From the NCBI RefSeq assembly GCF_009914755.1, contig NC_060930.1: DNA of 64,000 bases; one strand, given 5' to 3'. The position numbers were made by a program, and so were the translations under genes. The stretch is from the human T2T-CHM13v2.0 reference genome, Homo sapiens. Under the pieces are notes generated by a model. It saw nothing but the letters and a program-made list of their open reading frames with translations, was not told where the DNA came from and searched no databases. The first letter of the stretch is position 1; each line of letters starts with the position of its first letter. Below are positions 23,541-29,960 of the stretch, in pieces.

Positions 23541-26500
23541 CAGGTTTTTAAAATAACCTTAATTTTTTTAAACAGGTAATATGTGCATTATAGTAAATTA
23601 AAAAACACAAGAGGCCAAGCATGGTGGCTCACGCCTGTAATCCCTGCACTTTGGGAGGCAGAGGTGGGTGGATCACCTGAGGTCAGGAGTTCGAGACCAG
23701 CCTGGCCAACATGATGAAACTCCGTCTCTACTAAAAATACAACAAATTAGCTGGGTGTGGTGGCGTGTGCCTGTAATCCCAGCTACTCAGGAGGCTGAGG
23801 CAGGAGAATTGCTTGAACCTGGGAGGTGGAGGTTGCAGTGAGCCGAGATCGCACCACTGCACTCCAGCCTGGGCAATAAGAGCAAAACTCTGAAAAAAGA
23901 AAGAAAGAGAGAGAGATGGAGGGAAGGAAGGAAGGAAGGAGAAAAAAGTAAAACACAAGAAACAAAGAACAAAGTCATCCACAATCACAAGTAGTTTATA
24001 CTTTGATGTGTCCTTCTAGGTCCTGTGTGTGTAGACATAACATCCAGTTATATGGGATTGAGATTCTACAGTATATAGTATATATTATGCTTTTTTACAC
24101 ATCATAAATATTTACCAATTCAGAATTGCAAAGCTATATGAGTATTCTGATAACCAAGAATATACAGCACCAACTCAGTCTGTTAGAAAAACAATGTAAT
24201 CTTGCTTTTTTTGGGACAAAAATTTTATAGAAGGCAAAAATGGAGACATGCCTCTAGATAAAAGCATTAGCAGAGTTCTGATTAAAATACTGCATTCCCT
24301 TAGTGCTCAATTTAAAATAAAACATAAAGCAACTGAATACACTAAGTATAATATTTCTAAGAGAATTCATTAACAGATCTATACCATTAAAATATTAGCA
24401 AGAAGATATGTTTCCTTTTAATTACTTCATGTATTCCTATAGTACAGCCAAAAGAGATGCACATACACCAATGGCTATCGTCAAAATGGAAATATGGACA
24501 CATCTGCATTCATCTCTCCCTTTATACTTCCTTCTGCCTCTCTACTGCTAACCTGATGAACAAGTCCTGGTATACACTACCCAGTGGTGGTTTCACAATT
24601 CCATGTCCAAGATACATCTTTTCTAAAGATGTTTACTGAAAAGTAAAGTGCTCATATAGACCTATGGTTATCATCTAAAACCATGTTCTAGATAATGGAG
24701 ATACTAGCAAAGAGCCCTTCCCTTCAACTTTCCTCTTTTCCCTCTTCCACCGTCCAGGTGGCTATGTCCAGCTCCAAGAGGTGGATTAACAAAGGTCACT
24801 CCTGGAAGACAGGCCTTCCTAAAAACTAACAAAAGGATATAAATGGATTGTTTTACTACCTCTACTTCCAACACACTTTGAGCAAAAGGACTTGCATTTT
24901 AATATACAACAATATTAACTAAAATGCACATATAGAACAATGGTTAGACCATCTGAACTAATCTAACTCACCTGCACAGAACTCTTCCCTCTACATACTT
25001 CTTCCCCACAACTTGCCACTACCCAGTGAAAAGTCAGTGTACTCTCCAAAACCTCAAGTTTAACAATTCCATTCCCAAATACAACCACTCCTAGACAATT
25101 TTGGTGAAAGGTGTTACTTTAGTATCTACTTTTAACCTATGTTGTGTGCTTTTACACATCTAGAAAGACAAGATGTTTCAAATAGGAGTTGTTTTCCACT
25201 GTATATACAGTAGCAGTGAATAAATGGTGCATATACATAACACAGGCTATAATTTAAAAGTGTCTTCTAAATAGGAACATTACGGCCTAGAATCGTTTCC
25301 CTTCTCACCTCTAAATTAACCCTGTGGACAGGTATGAGCATCCAGAAGAGGAATAAGCATCCAGTTAGAGATTTTAACAATTTCACTTCTGTGGGGTTTT
25401 TCTTGTTTTTTTGTTGTTTTTTTTTTTGAGATGGAGTCTCACTCTGTTTCCCAGGCTGGAGTGCAGTGGCGCGATCTCAGCTCACTGCAACCTCTGCCTC
25501 CCAGCTTCAAGCGATTCTCCTGAGTAGCATCCTGAGTAGCTGGGACTACAGGCGTGTGCCACCATGTGCCCGGCTAATTTTTTTTTATTTTTAGTAGAGG
25601 CGGGGTTTCATCGTGTTAGCCAGGATGGTCTCGATTTCCTGAGCTCGTGATCTGCCTGCCTCAGCCTCCCAAAGTGCTGGGATTACAGGCGTGAGCCACT
25701 GGGCCCTGATCACTTCTGTGTTTTTAAGAACACTCTGTGAATTTTAACATAAGGTGTACTCAATGTATCAGTTTACTAACTCTACTTTTGTCATACACTA
25801 GCAACCTCCTTAACATCTGGAAAGACTAGATGTTGTAAATTAGGACTCGTTTGTGCATTTATATACACTATATACACAGCATAGTAAAAGACCATAAACA
25901 CACTGGTATAAAACCCTTTGCACTTTCTTCTCCTTCCTCCCTGAACCAGCACAAATATAATAATGTGTACTGCTCAGGGAATTAGTTTGATCAGTTTTCA
26001 AAAGACAATATTTCATACGAATCAAAACGGTATCTACAATGCATTTTGTGCATTTCTAAACATTTAGAAAGCCTAGATGTTTCAATTAAGGACTTAAGTT
26101 TGTCCACTATATACATAGTAGTGTTGAATAAACCACACACATGTAACAGTGGTTATATCTGAAAGTGTCTTCTAAATTGAAACATTCTATTCTAGAATCC
26201 TTAATTTCTTCCCACTCCTCTCCACCACAAACTCAGTGGATATAGGCACTTGTGTCACTTAGCTGATGTTATCATTTCACTTCCAAAAGTCCTTTTCAGG
26301 AGACAGTCTTTAAATGAATTTTAACACAAAGTGTACAAAATGGGTTAGTTTATTAACACTACTTTTGTCATACACTGGCAATCTCTTTAATATCTAGAGA
26401 CTAGATGTTACAAAATTGACTAGATATTATAAAATTTAATATATAGAGACTGTATATTATAAAATATACACTCAACAACTCATTTGTCCAGTATATACAC

Positions 26501-29500: not shown

Positions 29501-29960
29501 CATCAAGGTCTGGTAGAAGGAAGGCCAACCGCCCCATGGCCGTTACCGTTCTACTCGTCCTCATCCGGGACTGCGCTGACCTTCTGGCCGTTAAAGCCGT
29601 TATCCACTGTTATCAGGACCAGGTAGTCTCGCCCAACTGGGACAGAGCGGTCGCCCGAGGACCGGATCTGCGCGGCGCAGTGGCCTAAAAAGGAGGCCGA
29701 GCCAGTCCCTAGCTCCGCCTTCCCGGGCCCTGCGCCCTAGTGGCCTCTGCGCGGTTCTTCCCGACCCGCAAACACGCCGCCACCCAAAGCCTCTGTGTCC
29801 CGGCGGCCACCCGGTCACCGAGGTGTGAGGAGAGGTTCCCCGCTGCTTCAAGTCGGGGCCCGACGGGTTGGAGCCGAGGCCCCGGCTCTGCTGGAGCTCC
29901 AGAGCCCGAGTCTTTCTTAAGAGGCAAAGCTTTCTTAAGAGGCAAAGCGCGGGAACTGAC
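23541..29960 (-). pseudogene. Near full-length paralog/retrocopy of the lncRNA NORAD (LINC00657), interrupted by five Alus
   Basis: Minus strand is collinear with the recalled NORAD sequence: 5' GC-rich part ('tttaggccac..gccgcgcagatccggt', 'ttctaccagac..tgatgtgggaagagagaaatgg'), repeat units ('cattttattcctcactactgt') and terminus ('tataatgcacata..aaggttattttaaaa.cctg'). Independently, repeated hairpin units and Pumilio elements are visible. The 5' boundary is uncertain (clear homology to about 29860). Confidence 0.9.
23613..28987. mobile_element. Five Alus inserted in the NORAD copy: 23613-23949(+), 25397-25709(-), 27331-27635(-), about 27832-28140(-), 28708-28987(+)
   Basis: TSDs: AAAACACAAGA; TCACTTCTGTG (25383/25710); AACAATTCCACTTTC (27316/27636); AGCAGT-like; AAGACTAGACATTTC (28693/28988). 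Confidence 0.92.

What the first reader, a model, noticed from the sequence alone, without database searches (positions are those of the whole stretch)
23541..29960. Near full-length NORAD paralog retaining Pumilio elements and repeat-unit hairpins: a possible second PUM decoy
Seen: after removing five Alus, about 4.9 kb is built from repeated units. The block TACTTTTGTCATACACT(G/A)GCAACCTC..AACATCT.GA..GACTAGATG recurs at about 25783, 26360, 27071 and 28335. CATCTAG-loop-CTAGATG-type short hairpins recur at about 25157, 26061, 27767, 28685 and 29324. Perfect UGUAHAUA elements on the minus strand (plus TATDTACA) were counted by eye at 25202, 25860, 25869, 26108, 26492, 26716, 27816 and 28625, plus UGUAGAUA at 26031, all on one strand. 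Established: NORAD sequesters PUM1/2 through multivalent PREs, and NORAD paralogs exist (e.g. HCG11), so the copy itself may be catalogued. Inference: 8-9 PREs plus a preserved CpG island could make this a functional conditional sponge.
Basis: partly seen in the sequence, partly recalled or inferred. Interest (0 to 1): 0.85.

Follow-up and report, generated by a model that had tools for sequence, protein, structure and literature searches.

The report
Old NORAD pseudogene supplying SCAND3's promoter
This stretch is an old, decaying retro-copied pseudogene of the NORAD RNA whose Pumilio sites are eroding at the ordinary rate, and its CpG-rich front end now holds the annotated start and first exon of the SCAND3 gene.

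Summary
Window 23541-29891 (minus strand) aligns collinearly with NORAD nt ~125-5337 of 5343, at 86.3% identity over 4387 aligned bases.

- The copy is one of at least 37 NORAD-derived copies in this genome.
- It is an old processed pseudogene and no closer to HCG11 than to NORAD.
- It keeps 5 of 14 covered NORAD PREs exactly, against 6.3 expected from the other copies. With a 3-nt tolerance it keeps 7 of 14, against 7.5 expected.
- PRE bases are 84/98 identical, against 86.4% elsewhere.
- The poly(A) signal is mutated to AATTAA.
- RefSeq shows no transcript of its own, and all nine PREs lie in SCAND3 intron 1.

The preserved CpG island has a different explanation. SCAND3's annotated start, its non-coding exon 1 (29397-29574, NORAD nt 588-770) and a new AAG|GTGAGA splice donor all lie inside the copy.

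The pattern recurs. Eight of 16 copies that carry NORAD's 5' part hold an annotated gene start in it, against 0 of 21 copies lacking it. The pseudogene itself is ordinary. Its use as a promoter and first exon is a modest point that my literature searches did not find in print.

The parts
23541..29891 (-). Processed pseudogene (retrocopy) of the lncRNA NORAD, covering NORAD nt ~125-5337 of 5343 and interrupted by five Alus
   Evidence: Collinear BLAST chain: 4387 aligned nt at 86.3% identity. The 5' end is extended to window 29859 and to 29891 by profile. The 3' end lies 6 nt from NORAD's poly(A) site.
23530..23535 (-). Six-base A-run just past the end of homology, possibly a remnant of the poly(A) tail
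   Evidence: Sequence read. It is too short to be conclusive.
23559..23564 (-). Position of NORAD's poly(A) signal AATAAA, here AATTAA
   Evidence: NORAD-anchored rows; coordinates.
23592..23976 (+). Alu insertion 1, with an adjoining purine-rich simple repeat
   Evidence: Masked repeat; SRP-like sub-threshold hits on +; sequence.
25393..25709 (-). Alu insertion 2
   Evidence: Masked repeat; SRP-like hit on -.
27320..27639 (-). Alu insertion 3
   Evidence: Masked repeat; SRP-like hits on -.
27823..28134 (-). Alu insertion 4
   Evidence: Masked repeat; SRP-like hits on -.
28705..28996 (+). Alu insertion 5
   Evidence: Masked repeat; SRP-like hits on +.
25202..25209 (-). PRE UGUAUAUA. It matches NORAD's PRE at nt 3593 shifted by 2 nt
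25860..25867 (-). PRE UGUAUAUA, orthologous to NORAD nt 3284
25869..25876 (-). PRE UGUAUAUA, orthologous to NORAD nt 3275
26031..26038 (-). UGUAGAUA, at a place where NORAD has no PRE
26108..26115 (-). PRE UGUAUAUA, orthologous to NORAD nt 2972
26492..26499 (-). PRE UGUAUAUA. It matches NORAD's PRE at nt 2648 shifted by 2 nt
26716..26723 (-). PRE UGUAAAUA, orthologous to NORAD nt 2466
27816..27823 (-). PRE UGUAUAUA, where present-day NORAD (nt 1721-1728) has an imperfect site
28625..28632 (-). PRE UGUAAAUA, orthologous to NORAD nt 1241
25783..25832 (-). Repeat-unit block with a perfect short hairpin motif (25814-25832). Sister blocks lie at 26360, 27071 (1-nt deletion) and 28335
   Evidence: (D5).
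27767..27785 (-). Best-preserved repeat-unit hairpin (-11.1 kcal/mol, z = -4.4)
29324..29342 (-). Repeat-unit hairpin motif at the place of NORAD nt ~825, now just inside SCAND3 intron 1
29397..29574 (-). SCAND3 exon 1 (non-coding 5' UTR), derived entirely from NORAD nt 588-770. The annotated transcription start is at 29574
   Evidence: All 5 RefSeq SCAND3 transcripts use it; mapped to NORAD coordinates.
29391..29399 (-). 5' splice site AAG|GTGAGA of SCAND3 exon 1. It sits where NORAD reads AAT|ATGAAA, next to the decayed first PRE (NORAD nt 761)
   Evidence: Sequence; rows of 16 copies at these columns.
29450..29990 (.). CpG island (GC 0.63, observed/expected 0.83, 44 CpGs). About 440 of its 540 bp are demonstrably NORAD-derived

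Best explanation
The region is an old processed pseudogene of NORAD. A NORAD transcript was reverse-transcribed and inserted here before NORAD acquired its own Alu. The copy then picked up five Alus of its own and has drifted neutrally since. Its Pumilio elements, hairpins and repeat units are inherited relics that are eroding at the same rate as in other NORAD pseudogenes. It is not a maintained decoy.

What persists is the CpG-rich 5' segment that the NORAD transcript carries. This segment kept CpG-island character. It now holds the annotated transcription start and the non-coding first exon of SCAND3/ZBED9, a domesticated transposase gene, together with a newly created splice donor. The rest of the pseudogene is transcribed only as the start of SCAND3 intron 1 and is spliced out.

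Shown: homology, boundaries, neutral PRE decay, loss of the poly(A) signal, the position of the annotated start, exon and donor, and CpG retention. Inferred: that the NORAD-derived island is what supplies promoter activity, and that SCAND3 acquired it secondarily, probably in early primates.
For: Retrocopy origin.
- Homology is collinear.
- It stops 6 nt from NORAD's poly(A) site, as in 18 other copies whose rows reach nt 5324-5343.
- There is no significant similarity to NORAD's promoter or to NORAD nt 1-190: score 14.0 against 11.9 +/- 1.4 (maximum 16.5) in 100 shuffles.
- There is no flank homology.
- At least 37 copies lie on many chromosomes, many of them 5'-truncated.
- NORAD's Alu (nt 3662-3950) is precisely absent here and in 9 other rows, and present only in the 3 youngest full-length copies.
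- The copy is no closer to HCG11 (85.5%) or to any other copy than to NORAD (86.3%). Exclusive shared changes are at background level.

Neutral decay of PREs: 5/14 exact against 6.3 expected, and 7/14 with tolerance against 7.5 expected. Controls keep 57/134 and 69/134. PRE bases are 84/98 identical. The poly(A) signal is lost.

Use by SCAND3.
- All 5 RefSeq SCAND3 transcripts start at 29574 and use exon 29397-29574, which is NORAD nt 588-770.
- The donor is AAG|GTGAGA.
- CpG observed/expected in the segment aligned to NORAD nt 330-760 is 0.84. That is the highest of the 10 copies below 87% identity, which range from 0.17 to 0.84.

Recurrence.
- Eight of 16 copies with at least 200 nt of NORAD nt 1-760 hold an annotated gene start in that part, 7 of them in sense (HCG11, OVCH1-AS1, LINC02228, LINC03094, LINC02583, LINC01815, SCAND3). 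None of the 21 copies lacking it does (Fisher p = 3.3e-4).
- That is 9 starts in 9,997 aligned nt, against 1 in 69,340 nt of copy bodies and 0.19 expected from the genome-wide density.
- In the 15 other copies the 200 bp upstream hold 0-6 CpGs, so their islands arrived with the copy.

Literature (passages seen). Tichon 2016 reports a large number of NORAD pseudogenes, of which only HCG11 is expressed, about 20 times below NORAD. Carelli 2016 describes the class of retrocopy promoters inherited from the parent transcript, about 3% of expressed retrocopies.
Against: - No target-site duplication was found, and only a 6-base A-run remains.
- The CpG-rich stretch runs about 100 bp beyond detectable NORAD homology (29892-29990). 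The 200 bp upstream of 29859 hold 13 CpGs, unlike any other copy. A pre-existing CpG-rich site therefore cannot be excluded.
- The promoter and exon 1 parts are not more conserved than the intronic body. Own-branch changes are 28/232 and 20/178, against 72/713 and 243/3264. Nothing in the substitution counts shows constraint on them.
- Two other old copies (chr6 29.04 Mb and chr19 12.68 Mb) keep CpG observed/expected of 0.78 and 0.76 with no annotated start. CpG retention alone therefore does not prove use.
- Promoter activity rests on RefSeq annotation alone. I had no CAGE, chromatin or methylation data.
- Annotated starts in the youngest copies (95-98% identical) could in principle be coloured by mis-assigned NORAD reads.
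- Kokosar and Kordis 2013 tabulated SCAND3 as lacking a promoter CpG island, as I read a flattened table. That probably refers to an older, shorter gene model, which is my inference.
- The control pseudogenes are assumed to be neutral.
Confidence: 0.85

Rival explanations
1. A second Pumilio decoy. The copy is transcribed as its own RNA, or survives as an unspliced or intron-terminated SCAND3 isoform, and its 8-9 PREs sequester PUM1/2 under some conditions.
For: There are nine sense-strand PRE matches against one antisense, far above chance. The copy lies in sense within a transcribed gene, just downstream of a CpG-island start. Four AATAAA and five ATTAAA hexamers on the minus strand inside the intronic body could in principle end a short isoform. 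HCG11 shows that a NORAD copy can be expressed and bound by PUM (passages).
Against: PRE retention equals that of 24 control pseudogene pieces of the same divergence, and PRE bases diverge like other bases. The native poly(A) signal is lost. RefSeq has no such transcript, and all PREs are intronic. Same-age copies elsewhere hold as many or more PREs. Bohn 2018 calculates that even NORAD and HCG11 each hold under 1% of expressed PREs in HEK293 (passage). A rarer RNA with 9 PREs would matter less, which is my inference. No paper in the searched library holds SCAND3 or ZBED9 together with NORAD or Pumilio.
Confidence: 0.03
2. A DNA-level (segmental) duplicate of HCG11, or of the other chr6 copy at 29.04 Mb, rather than an independent retrocopy of NORAD.
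For: All three lie within 2.7 Mb on chr6p22. The 29.04 Mb copy is on the same strand, has the same identity to NORAD (86.3%), and shares three otherwise rare changes within 12 nt at the donor site (nt 764, 771, 775).
Against: Identity to HCG11 is 85.5% and to the 29.04 Mb copy 83.3%, both below the 86.3% to NORAD. Exclusive shared changes with the 29.04 Mb copy (23/2843 = 0.0081) are about the same as with the unrelated chrX copy (32/4248 = 0.0075). HCG11 carries NORAD's Alu and this copy does not. No homology extends beyond the transcript ends.
Confidence: 0.04
3. The CpG island and SCAND3 start were already at this site. The NORAD transcript merely inserted next to or into them, so the overlap with NORAD-derived sequence is incidental.
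For: CpG-rich sequence extends about 100 bp upstream of the detectable homology, with 13 CpGs in the 200 bp upstream of 29859, unlike the 15 other copies. No significant NORAD similarity is found there.
Against: The annotated start (NORAD nt 588), all of exon 1 and the donor lie inside NORAD-derived sequence. About 440 of the island's 540 bp are NORAD-derived. The unexplained 100 bp is about the length of the undetected first ~125 nt of NORAD, which is 72% GC. Seven other independent copies hold annotated starts in the same segment with CpG-poor flanks.
Confidence: 0.15

Closest known systems
NORAD (LINC00657), chr20, the parent gene
   Same: Same order of sequence over nt ~125-5337. The same repeat units, short hairpins and PRE positions are present; 5 PREs are exact and 2 more are shifted by 2 nt.
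   Different: It is 13.7% diverged at aligned bases, with deletions (for example nt 253-318 and 4488-4620) and five Alu insertions. It has 9 PREs against 15. It lacks NORAD's Alu, has lost the poly(A) signal and has no transcript of its own. It is intronic in another gene.
HCG11, chr6 26.39 Mb, the expressed NORAD retrocopy
   Same: Both are NORAD-derived, lie on chr6p22, and have an annotated start in or at the NORAD 5' segment.
   Different: HCG11 is much younger: own-branch divergence is 2.9% against 8.3%. It is full length, keeps 12/15 PREs exactly (16 in all), keeps AATAAA, carries NORAD's Alu, and is annotated as its own unspliced lncRNA. It is not the source of this copy.
Other old NORAD processed pseudogenes (for example chrX 77.69 Mb, chr16 64.53 Mb, chr6 29.04 Mb)
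   Same: Similar age, similar Alu load and similar PRE retention: 4/15, 5/12 and 6/13 exact, against 5/14 here. They have the same 3' end.
   Different: The chrX and chr16 copies have lost their CpG island (observed/expected 0.17 and 0.20, against 0.84 here) and hold no gene start. Among the copies examined, only this one holds the annotated start of a protein-coding gene.
Retrocopy promoters inherited from the parent transcript (Carelli et al. 2016, Genome Res, their Fig. 2A class; passages seen)
   Same: CpG-rich promoter-competent sequence carried inside the retrotransposed RNA gives a start at the new site.
   Different: Here the parent is a lncRNA. The beneficiary is not the retrocopy itself but an unrelated downstream protein-coding gene, which splices from the retrocopy's 5' part across the rest of it.

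Membership tests
Processed pseudogene (retrocopy) of NORAD | Collinear homology to the parent transcript | tested here: met
   Eight chained segments cover NORAD nt 324-5337, with 4387 aligned nt at 86.3% identity. Extended to nt 188 and to about nt 125.
Processed pseudogene (retrocopy) of NORAD | Homology confined to the transcribed region and ending at the parent's poly(A) site | tested here: met
   It ends at nt 5337 of 5343. Neither the promoter nor the downstream flank matches.
Processed pseudogene (retrocopy) of NORAD | Poly(A) tail remnant | tested here: inconclusive
   Only a 6-base A-run at 23530-23535.
Processed pseudogene (retrocopy) of NORAD | Target-site duplications | tested here: inconclusive
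   Best flank matches are at shuffle level: 150/300 and 55/300 shuffles do as well. This is expected at this age, and the 5' boundary is uncertain.
Processed pseudogene (retrocopy) of NORAD | Loss of the parent's introns | not testable with these tools
   NORAD is annotated as a single-exon gene, so the criterion carries no information.
Processed pseudogene (retrocopy) of NORAD | One of many dispersed copies, often 5'-truncated, sharing the 3' end | tested here: met
   37 copies were examined on many chromosomes. Rows of 18 other copies reach the same 3' end.
Functional Pumilio decoy lncRNA (NORAD-like) | Many PREs on the sense strand | tested here: met
   Nine UGUANAUA on the sense strand against 1 antisense. 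The count is explained by descent from NORAD.
Functional Pumilio decoy lncRNA (NORAD-like) | PREs kept by selection (retention above neutral) | tested here: not met
   5/14 against 6.3 expected, and 7/14 against 7.5 expected. Controls keep 57/134 and 69/134. PRE bases are 84/98 identical, against 86.4% elsewhere.
Functional Pumilio decoy lncRNA (NORAD-like) | Its own polyadenylated transcript | tested here: not met
   RefSeq has no transcript other than SCAND3. AATAAA has become AATTAA. This rests on annotation and sequence only; no expression data were on hand.
Functional Pumilio decoy lncRNA (NORAD-like) | Abundant, cytoplasmic and bound by PUM1/2 | not testable with these tools
   There are no reads or CLIP data here, and supplements of the CLIP papers were closed.
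Retrocopy-borne promoter or first exon taken over by a host gene | Annotated start, first exon and donor inside retrocopy-derived sequence, in sense | tested here: met
   The start at 29574 is NORAD nt 588. The exon end at 29397 is nt 770. The donor GT is at 29396-29395.
Retrocopy-borne promoter or first exon taken over by a host gene | CpG-island character kept despite age | tested here: met
   Observed/expected is 0.84 with 30 CpGs in 395 nt, the highest of the 10 copies below 87% identity.
Retrocopy-borne promoter or first exon taken over by a host gene | Measured promoter activity (CAGE, H3K4me3, reporter) | not testable with these tools
   Only RefSeq models are available (1 curated, 4 predicted).
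Retrocopy-borne promoter or first exon taken over by a host gene | Insertion younger than the host gene | not testable with these tools
   Inference only. SCAND3 is dated to the therian ancestor by Kokosar and Kordis 2013 (passage). The copy's own-branch divergence is 8.3%. No other mammalian genome could be searched.

The most novel reading that the evidence does not exclude
NORAD's transcribed, CpG-rich first ~760 nt may be a self-contained, portable promoter module. On this reading, each retrocopy that includes it can seed a new transcription start wherever it lands. Eight of 16 such copies hold an annotated start in it, against 0 of 21 without it. One of these seeds was captured, probably in early primates, as the promoter, 5'-UTR exon and splice donor of the much older domesticated transposase gene SCAND3/ZBED9. 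A highly expressed lncRNA would then have rewired a protein-coding gene's transcription through its own pseudogene.
Probability: 0.55. Interest if true: 0.5.

Novelty: new member of a known kind. Interest (0 to 1): 0.3.

Why it matters
For the finding as given, very little changes. NORAD pseudogenes are known to be numerous (Tichon 2016 and Kopp 2019, passages). This one shows no sign of being kept as a Pumilio sponge. Its main practical relevance is as a mapping hazard for NORAD reads.

The by-product is of modest interest. It gives a concrete example of a lncRNA retrocopy whose 5' part holds the annotated start, first exon and splice donor of a protein-coding gene. The gene is SCAND3/ZBED9, itself a domesticated transposon gene. 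NORAD's 5' segment also holds annotated gene starts in eight independent copies.

This makes two things testable. The first is whether a CpG-island fragment carried in an RNA is enough to found a promoter. The second is when primates acquired the present SCAND3 promoter. It also explains why HCG11 and several lncRNAs (OVCH1-AS1, LINC02228, LINC03094, LINC02583, LINC01815) start where they do.

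Tried and rejected
1. The MAFFT alignment of the 5' ends misplaced the window sequence upstream of NORAD nt ~320. I replaced it with local alignments with shuffles and a profile search.

2. The search for target-site duplications gave nothing above shuffles.

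3. The Rfam scan of 23000-30500 at E <= 0.01 gave 18 matches. None is a NORAD family, and none reaches its family's gathering score. All are Alu-borne look-alikes of SRP RNA, mir-1268 and mir-3135.

4. The sigma-70 promoter and intrinsic terminator scan is a bacterial tool and says nothing here. I should not have run it.

5. DNA-level duplication from HCG11 or from the chr6 29.04 Mb copy is rejected on identities and exclusive shared changes.

6. I looked for lower divergence in the promoter and exon 1 part as a sign of constraint and found none.

7. Two methylation papers that name SCAND3/ZBED9 (passages) give no coordinates that I could tie to this island. By rough arithmetic from gene lengths, the birth-order region, 46 kb from the old gene start, would fall near window ~45,800 and not here. 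I did not verify this.

8. Bohn 2018 states that NORAD and HCG11 appear to be driven by LTR-derived promoters (passage). The repeat masking of this assembly shows no masked stretch of 100 bases or more at or within about 1 kb upstream of HCG11's 5' end, nor at 29397-30347 in the window. I could not check this with a repeat library.

9. I did not classify or date the Alus because no repeat library was available, and I built no consensus of them.

10. The age in years is not computed from any call. It rests on recalled primate substitution rates.

Caveats on counts.
- I grouped the 139 matches into loci by hand, and only 40 of 4490 first-look candidates were scored, so 37 copies is a lower bound.
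- The chr9 copy enters the logistic fit twice (L008 and L014 overlap). It is outside the 82-90% identity control pool.
- Identities of 86% are over aligned columns with gap-friendly scoring. Default BLAST gave 73-87% per segment of the collinear chain.

Full report
WHAT IS THERE

The window is chr6:28458001-28522000 of T2T-CHM13. I took NORAD (chr20, minus strand, 5343 nt) and HCG11 from the same genome using the annotation table and compared them with the window.

BLAST gives one collinear chain between the NORAD locus and window 23541-29750, at 73-87% identity per segment. Many off-diagonal hits arise from NORAD's internal repeats and from Alus. The NORAD-like sense strand is the window's minus strand, which is also the strand of SCAND3.

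Chaining with gap-friendly scoring covers NORAD nt 324-5337, with 4387 aligned bases at 86.3% identity. A local alignment carries the homology on to NORAD nt 188 at window 29859, across a deletion of about nt 253-318. Its score is 26.5, against 12.2 +/- 1.1 in 50 shuffles. A profile built from the 5' ends of 14 other family rows carries it to about nt 125 at window 29891, E = 2.2e-8.

Further upstream nothing significant matches NORAD's first 190 nt or its 1 kb promoter. The score is 14.0, against 11.9 +/- 1.4 with a maximum of 16.5 in 100 shuffles.

They hold in detail.
- PREs. The nine plus-strand TATNTACA sites are at exactly the stated coordinates, with one site on the other strand.
- Repeat block. 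It recurs at 25783, 26360 and 28335 and at 27071 with a one-base deletion. The repeat finder returns several families of NORAD-type units.
- Hairpins. The motif is perfect at 25814, 27767 and 29324 and imperfect at the three other places. Only the one at 27767 folds clearly better than shuffles.
- Alus. Five interrupt the copy.

WHAT KIND OF COPY

A search of the whole genome with NORAD returned 139 matching pieces. I grouped them by hand into 36 further loci and fetched those not already held. After merging two split loci there are 37 copies including this one. This is a lower bound, because only 40 of 4490 first-look candidates were scored.

The copies lie on many chromosomes, and many are 5'-truncated. 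Rows of 18 others reach the same 3' end as this one, at NORAD's poly(A) site. This copy ends at nt 5337 of 5343, followed by a G-run and a six-base A-run.

The copy shares nothing with NORAD's flanks. It precisely lacks the Alu that sits in present-day NORAD at nt 3662-3950. So do nine other rows, whereas the three youngest full-length copies (chr12, HCG11, chrX 79.43 Mb) carry it.

It is no closer to HCG11 (85.5%) or to any other copy than to NORAD itself (86.3%). Changes shared exclusively with any single copy are at background level: 23/2843 for the neighbouring chr6 29.04 Mb copy against 32/4248 for a chrX copy.

Together this is the signature of an independent, old processed pseudogene. 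No target-site duplication is detectable, and I count that test as inconclusive at this age.

Using the other copies to polarise differences, 363 of 4387 sites (8.3%, K2P 0.088) changed on this copy's own branch. Another 236 (5.4%) are states shared with other copies, most likely changes on NORAD's branch. HCG11's own branch is 2.9%. From recalled primate substitution rates I infer an insertion in early primates. No call computes this date.

Tichon et al. 2016 already note the 'large number' of NORAD pseudogenes, four of them over 90% identical over more than 4 kb, with only HCG11 expressed (passage). Kopp et al. 2019 mention them as a mapping problem (passage).

IS IT A KEPT PUMILIO DECOY?

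NORAD has 15 UGUANAUA sites on the sense strand and one on the antisense strand. Fourteen of the 15 positions are covered by this copy.
- Five are intact in place. Two more are intact but shifted by 2 nt within a TG/TA run. One of the nine window sites sits where NORAD is imperfect today, and one where NORAD has none.
- I used the other pseudogenes as an empirical neutral standard. A logistic fit of retention on identity predicts 6.3 exact (5 observed; P of at least 5 = 0.84) and 7.5 within 3 nt (7 observed).
- The 24 control pieces of 82-90% identity keep 57 of 134 exactly and 69 of 134 with tolerance.
- The seven specified bases of the covered PREs are 84/98 identical (85.7%), against 86.4% for all other aligned bases.
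- By plain arithmetic, 0.864 to the seventh power times 14 gives 5.0.
- Same-age copies hold as many sites or more: 10, 10 and 12. HCG11 and the chr12 copy hold 16 each.

NORAD's AATAAA reads AATTAA here. RefSeq shows no transcript of the copy. All nine PREs lie in SCAND3 intron 1.

Bohn et al. 2018 add that even NORAD and HCG11 each hold under 1% of expressed PREs in HEK293 cells (passage). Expression and CLIP data could not be consulted, and the supplements of those papers were closed.

WHAT THE PRESERVED CpG ISLAND IS DOING

All five RefSeq SCAND3 transcripts (one curated, four predicted) begin at window 29574 and use a first exon at 29397-29574. That exon is non-coding, since the coding part starts at window 91 (and the given annotation). 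In NORAD coordinates this exon is nt 588-770.

It ends in AAG|GTGAGA. NORAD and 14 of the 15 other copies that cover these columns read ...AATATGAAA... or a close variant without GTGAG. The chr6 29.04 Mb copy reads AAAGTGAGA. The donor lies directly after what was NORAD's first PRE (nt 761), which is destroyed here.

The island at 29450-29990 has GC 0.63, observed/expected 0.83 and 44 CpGs. Over the segment aligned to NORAD nt 330-760 the observed/expected value is 0.84. That is the highest of the ten copies below 87% identity, which range down to 0.17 and 0.20.

The substitution counts show no extra conservation of the promoter or exon part: 28/232 and 20/178 own-branch changes, against 72/713 and 243/3264 further in. 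What is maintained is CpG density, not sequence.

A RECURRENT PROPERTY OF NORAD'S 5' SEGMENT

Sixteen of the 37 copies carry at least 200 nt of NORAD nt 1-760. Eight of them hold an annotated gene start within that part.
- In sense: HCG11 (nt 1), OVCH1-AS1 (14), LINC02228 (371), LINC03094 (470), LINC02583 (492), SCAND3 (588) and LINC01815 (676).
- In antisense: LINC02211 (57, in the same copy as LINC02228) and KRT18P55 (571).

None of the 21 copies without that part holds a start (Fisher p = 3.3e-4). That is nine starts in 9,997 aligned nt, against one in 69,340 nt of copy bodies and 0.19 expected from the genome-wide density.

In the 15 other copies the 200 bp upstream hold 0-6 CpGs, so the islands came with the copies. 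Here the upstream 200 bp hold 13 CpGs. This may be the unrecognisable first ~125 nt of NORAD or a pre-existing CpG-rich site, and I cannot tell which.

There are caveats. Starts are RefSeq gene ends, not measured. For the youngest copies, mis-assigned NORAD reads might colour the models. Two CpG-retaining copies (chr6 29.04 Mb and chr19 12.68 Mb) have no annotated start.

COMPARISON WITH WHAT IS KNOWN

The general mechanism is described by Carelli et al. 2016, who put promoter inheritance from the parent transcript at about 3% of expressed retrocopies (passages).

Kokosar and Kordis 2013 date SCAND3 to the therian ancestor. They list it, as I read a flattened table, as not associated with a promoter CpG island. 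That probably refers to an older, shorter gene model, which is my inference (passages).

The searched library holds no paper with SCAND3 and NORAD, SCAND3 and Pumilio, or ZBED9 and Pumilio. In a search of six names, with at least two required, the only paper found links NORAD with OVCH1-AS1 in a homology cluster table. A phrase search for NORAD pseudogene, paralog or -like reported seven papers and listed four. Two were on NORAD, the Tichon and Kopp papers. The other two concerned Toxoplasma.

Lee et al. 2016 (Cell) is recalled, not seen.

VERDICT

The identification as a NORAD-derived copy is right. The decoy function is not supported.

The object is an ordinary old processed pseudogene. Its one notable feature is that its 5' part holds the annotated start, first exon and splice donor of SCAND3. 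This fits a recurrent pattern in which NORAD retrocopies hold annotated gene starts in their 5' part.

Noticed in passing
L010 = G000 chr6:29037213-29040895 (minus strand), about 550 kb from the window copy: A second old NORAD pseudogene on chr6p22. It has the same identity to NORAD (86.3%), a retained CpG-rich 5' part (observed/expected 0.78), 10 sense PREs and a donor-like AAAGTGAGA at the same columns as SCAND3's donor. It has no RefSeq gene. It shares three otherwise rare changes with the window copy within 12 nt (NORAD nt 764, 771, 775), but is not closer overall.
   Followed up: partly
NORAD nt 3662-3950 (L001) and 13 copy rows: NORAD's internal Alu is present only in the three youngest full-length copies (chr12, HCG11, chrX 79.43 Mb) and precisely absent from ten older rows. 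This gives a relative time mark for NORAD retrocopies: the Alu inserted after the chr9 116.17 Mb copy (own branch about 4-5%) and before the chrX 79.43 Mb copy and HCG11 (both about 2.9%).
   Followed up: yes
window 29913-29948, minus strand: An 18-base unit is repeated twice in tandem, just upstream of the detectable NORAD homology and inside the CpG-rich stretch.
   Followed up: no
HCG11 5' end, chr6:26389000-26393838 of G000: Bohn et al. 2018 say NORAD and HCG11 appear to be driven by LTR-derived promoters. The assembly's masking shows no repeat of 100 bases or more at or within about 1 kb upstream of HCG11's start. A tRNA-Leu gene lies about 420 bp upstream.
   Followed up: partly
L034 = G000 chr16:64532235-64539629: An old NORAD copy heavily broken up by Alu insertions, with a U6 snRNA pseudogene (RNU6-1155P) annotated inside it.
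   Followed up: no
G000 chr4:109751715-109753837: A NORAD copy whose pieces match in both orientations, so it carries an internal inversion or is a rearranged copy.
   Followed up: no
window 58653-58844 and 32213-32685: Small clusters of further TATNTACA matches outside the NORAD copy: three within 200 bp at 58.7 kb and three at 32.2-32.7 kb, on mixed strands. They were not examined.
   Followed up: no
window ~45,800-47,000 (LOC105374996 start at 45962): A published birth-order methylation region labelled ZBED9, 46 kb from the old gene start. By my rough arithmetic it may fall near this lncRNA's start rather than at the SCAND3 island. I did not verify the coordinate conversion.
   Followed up: no
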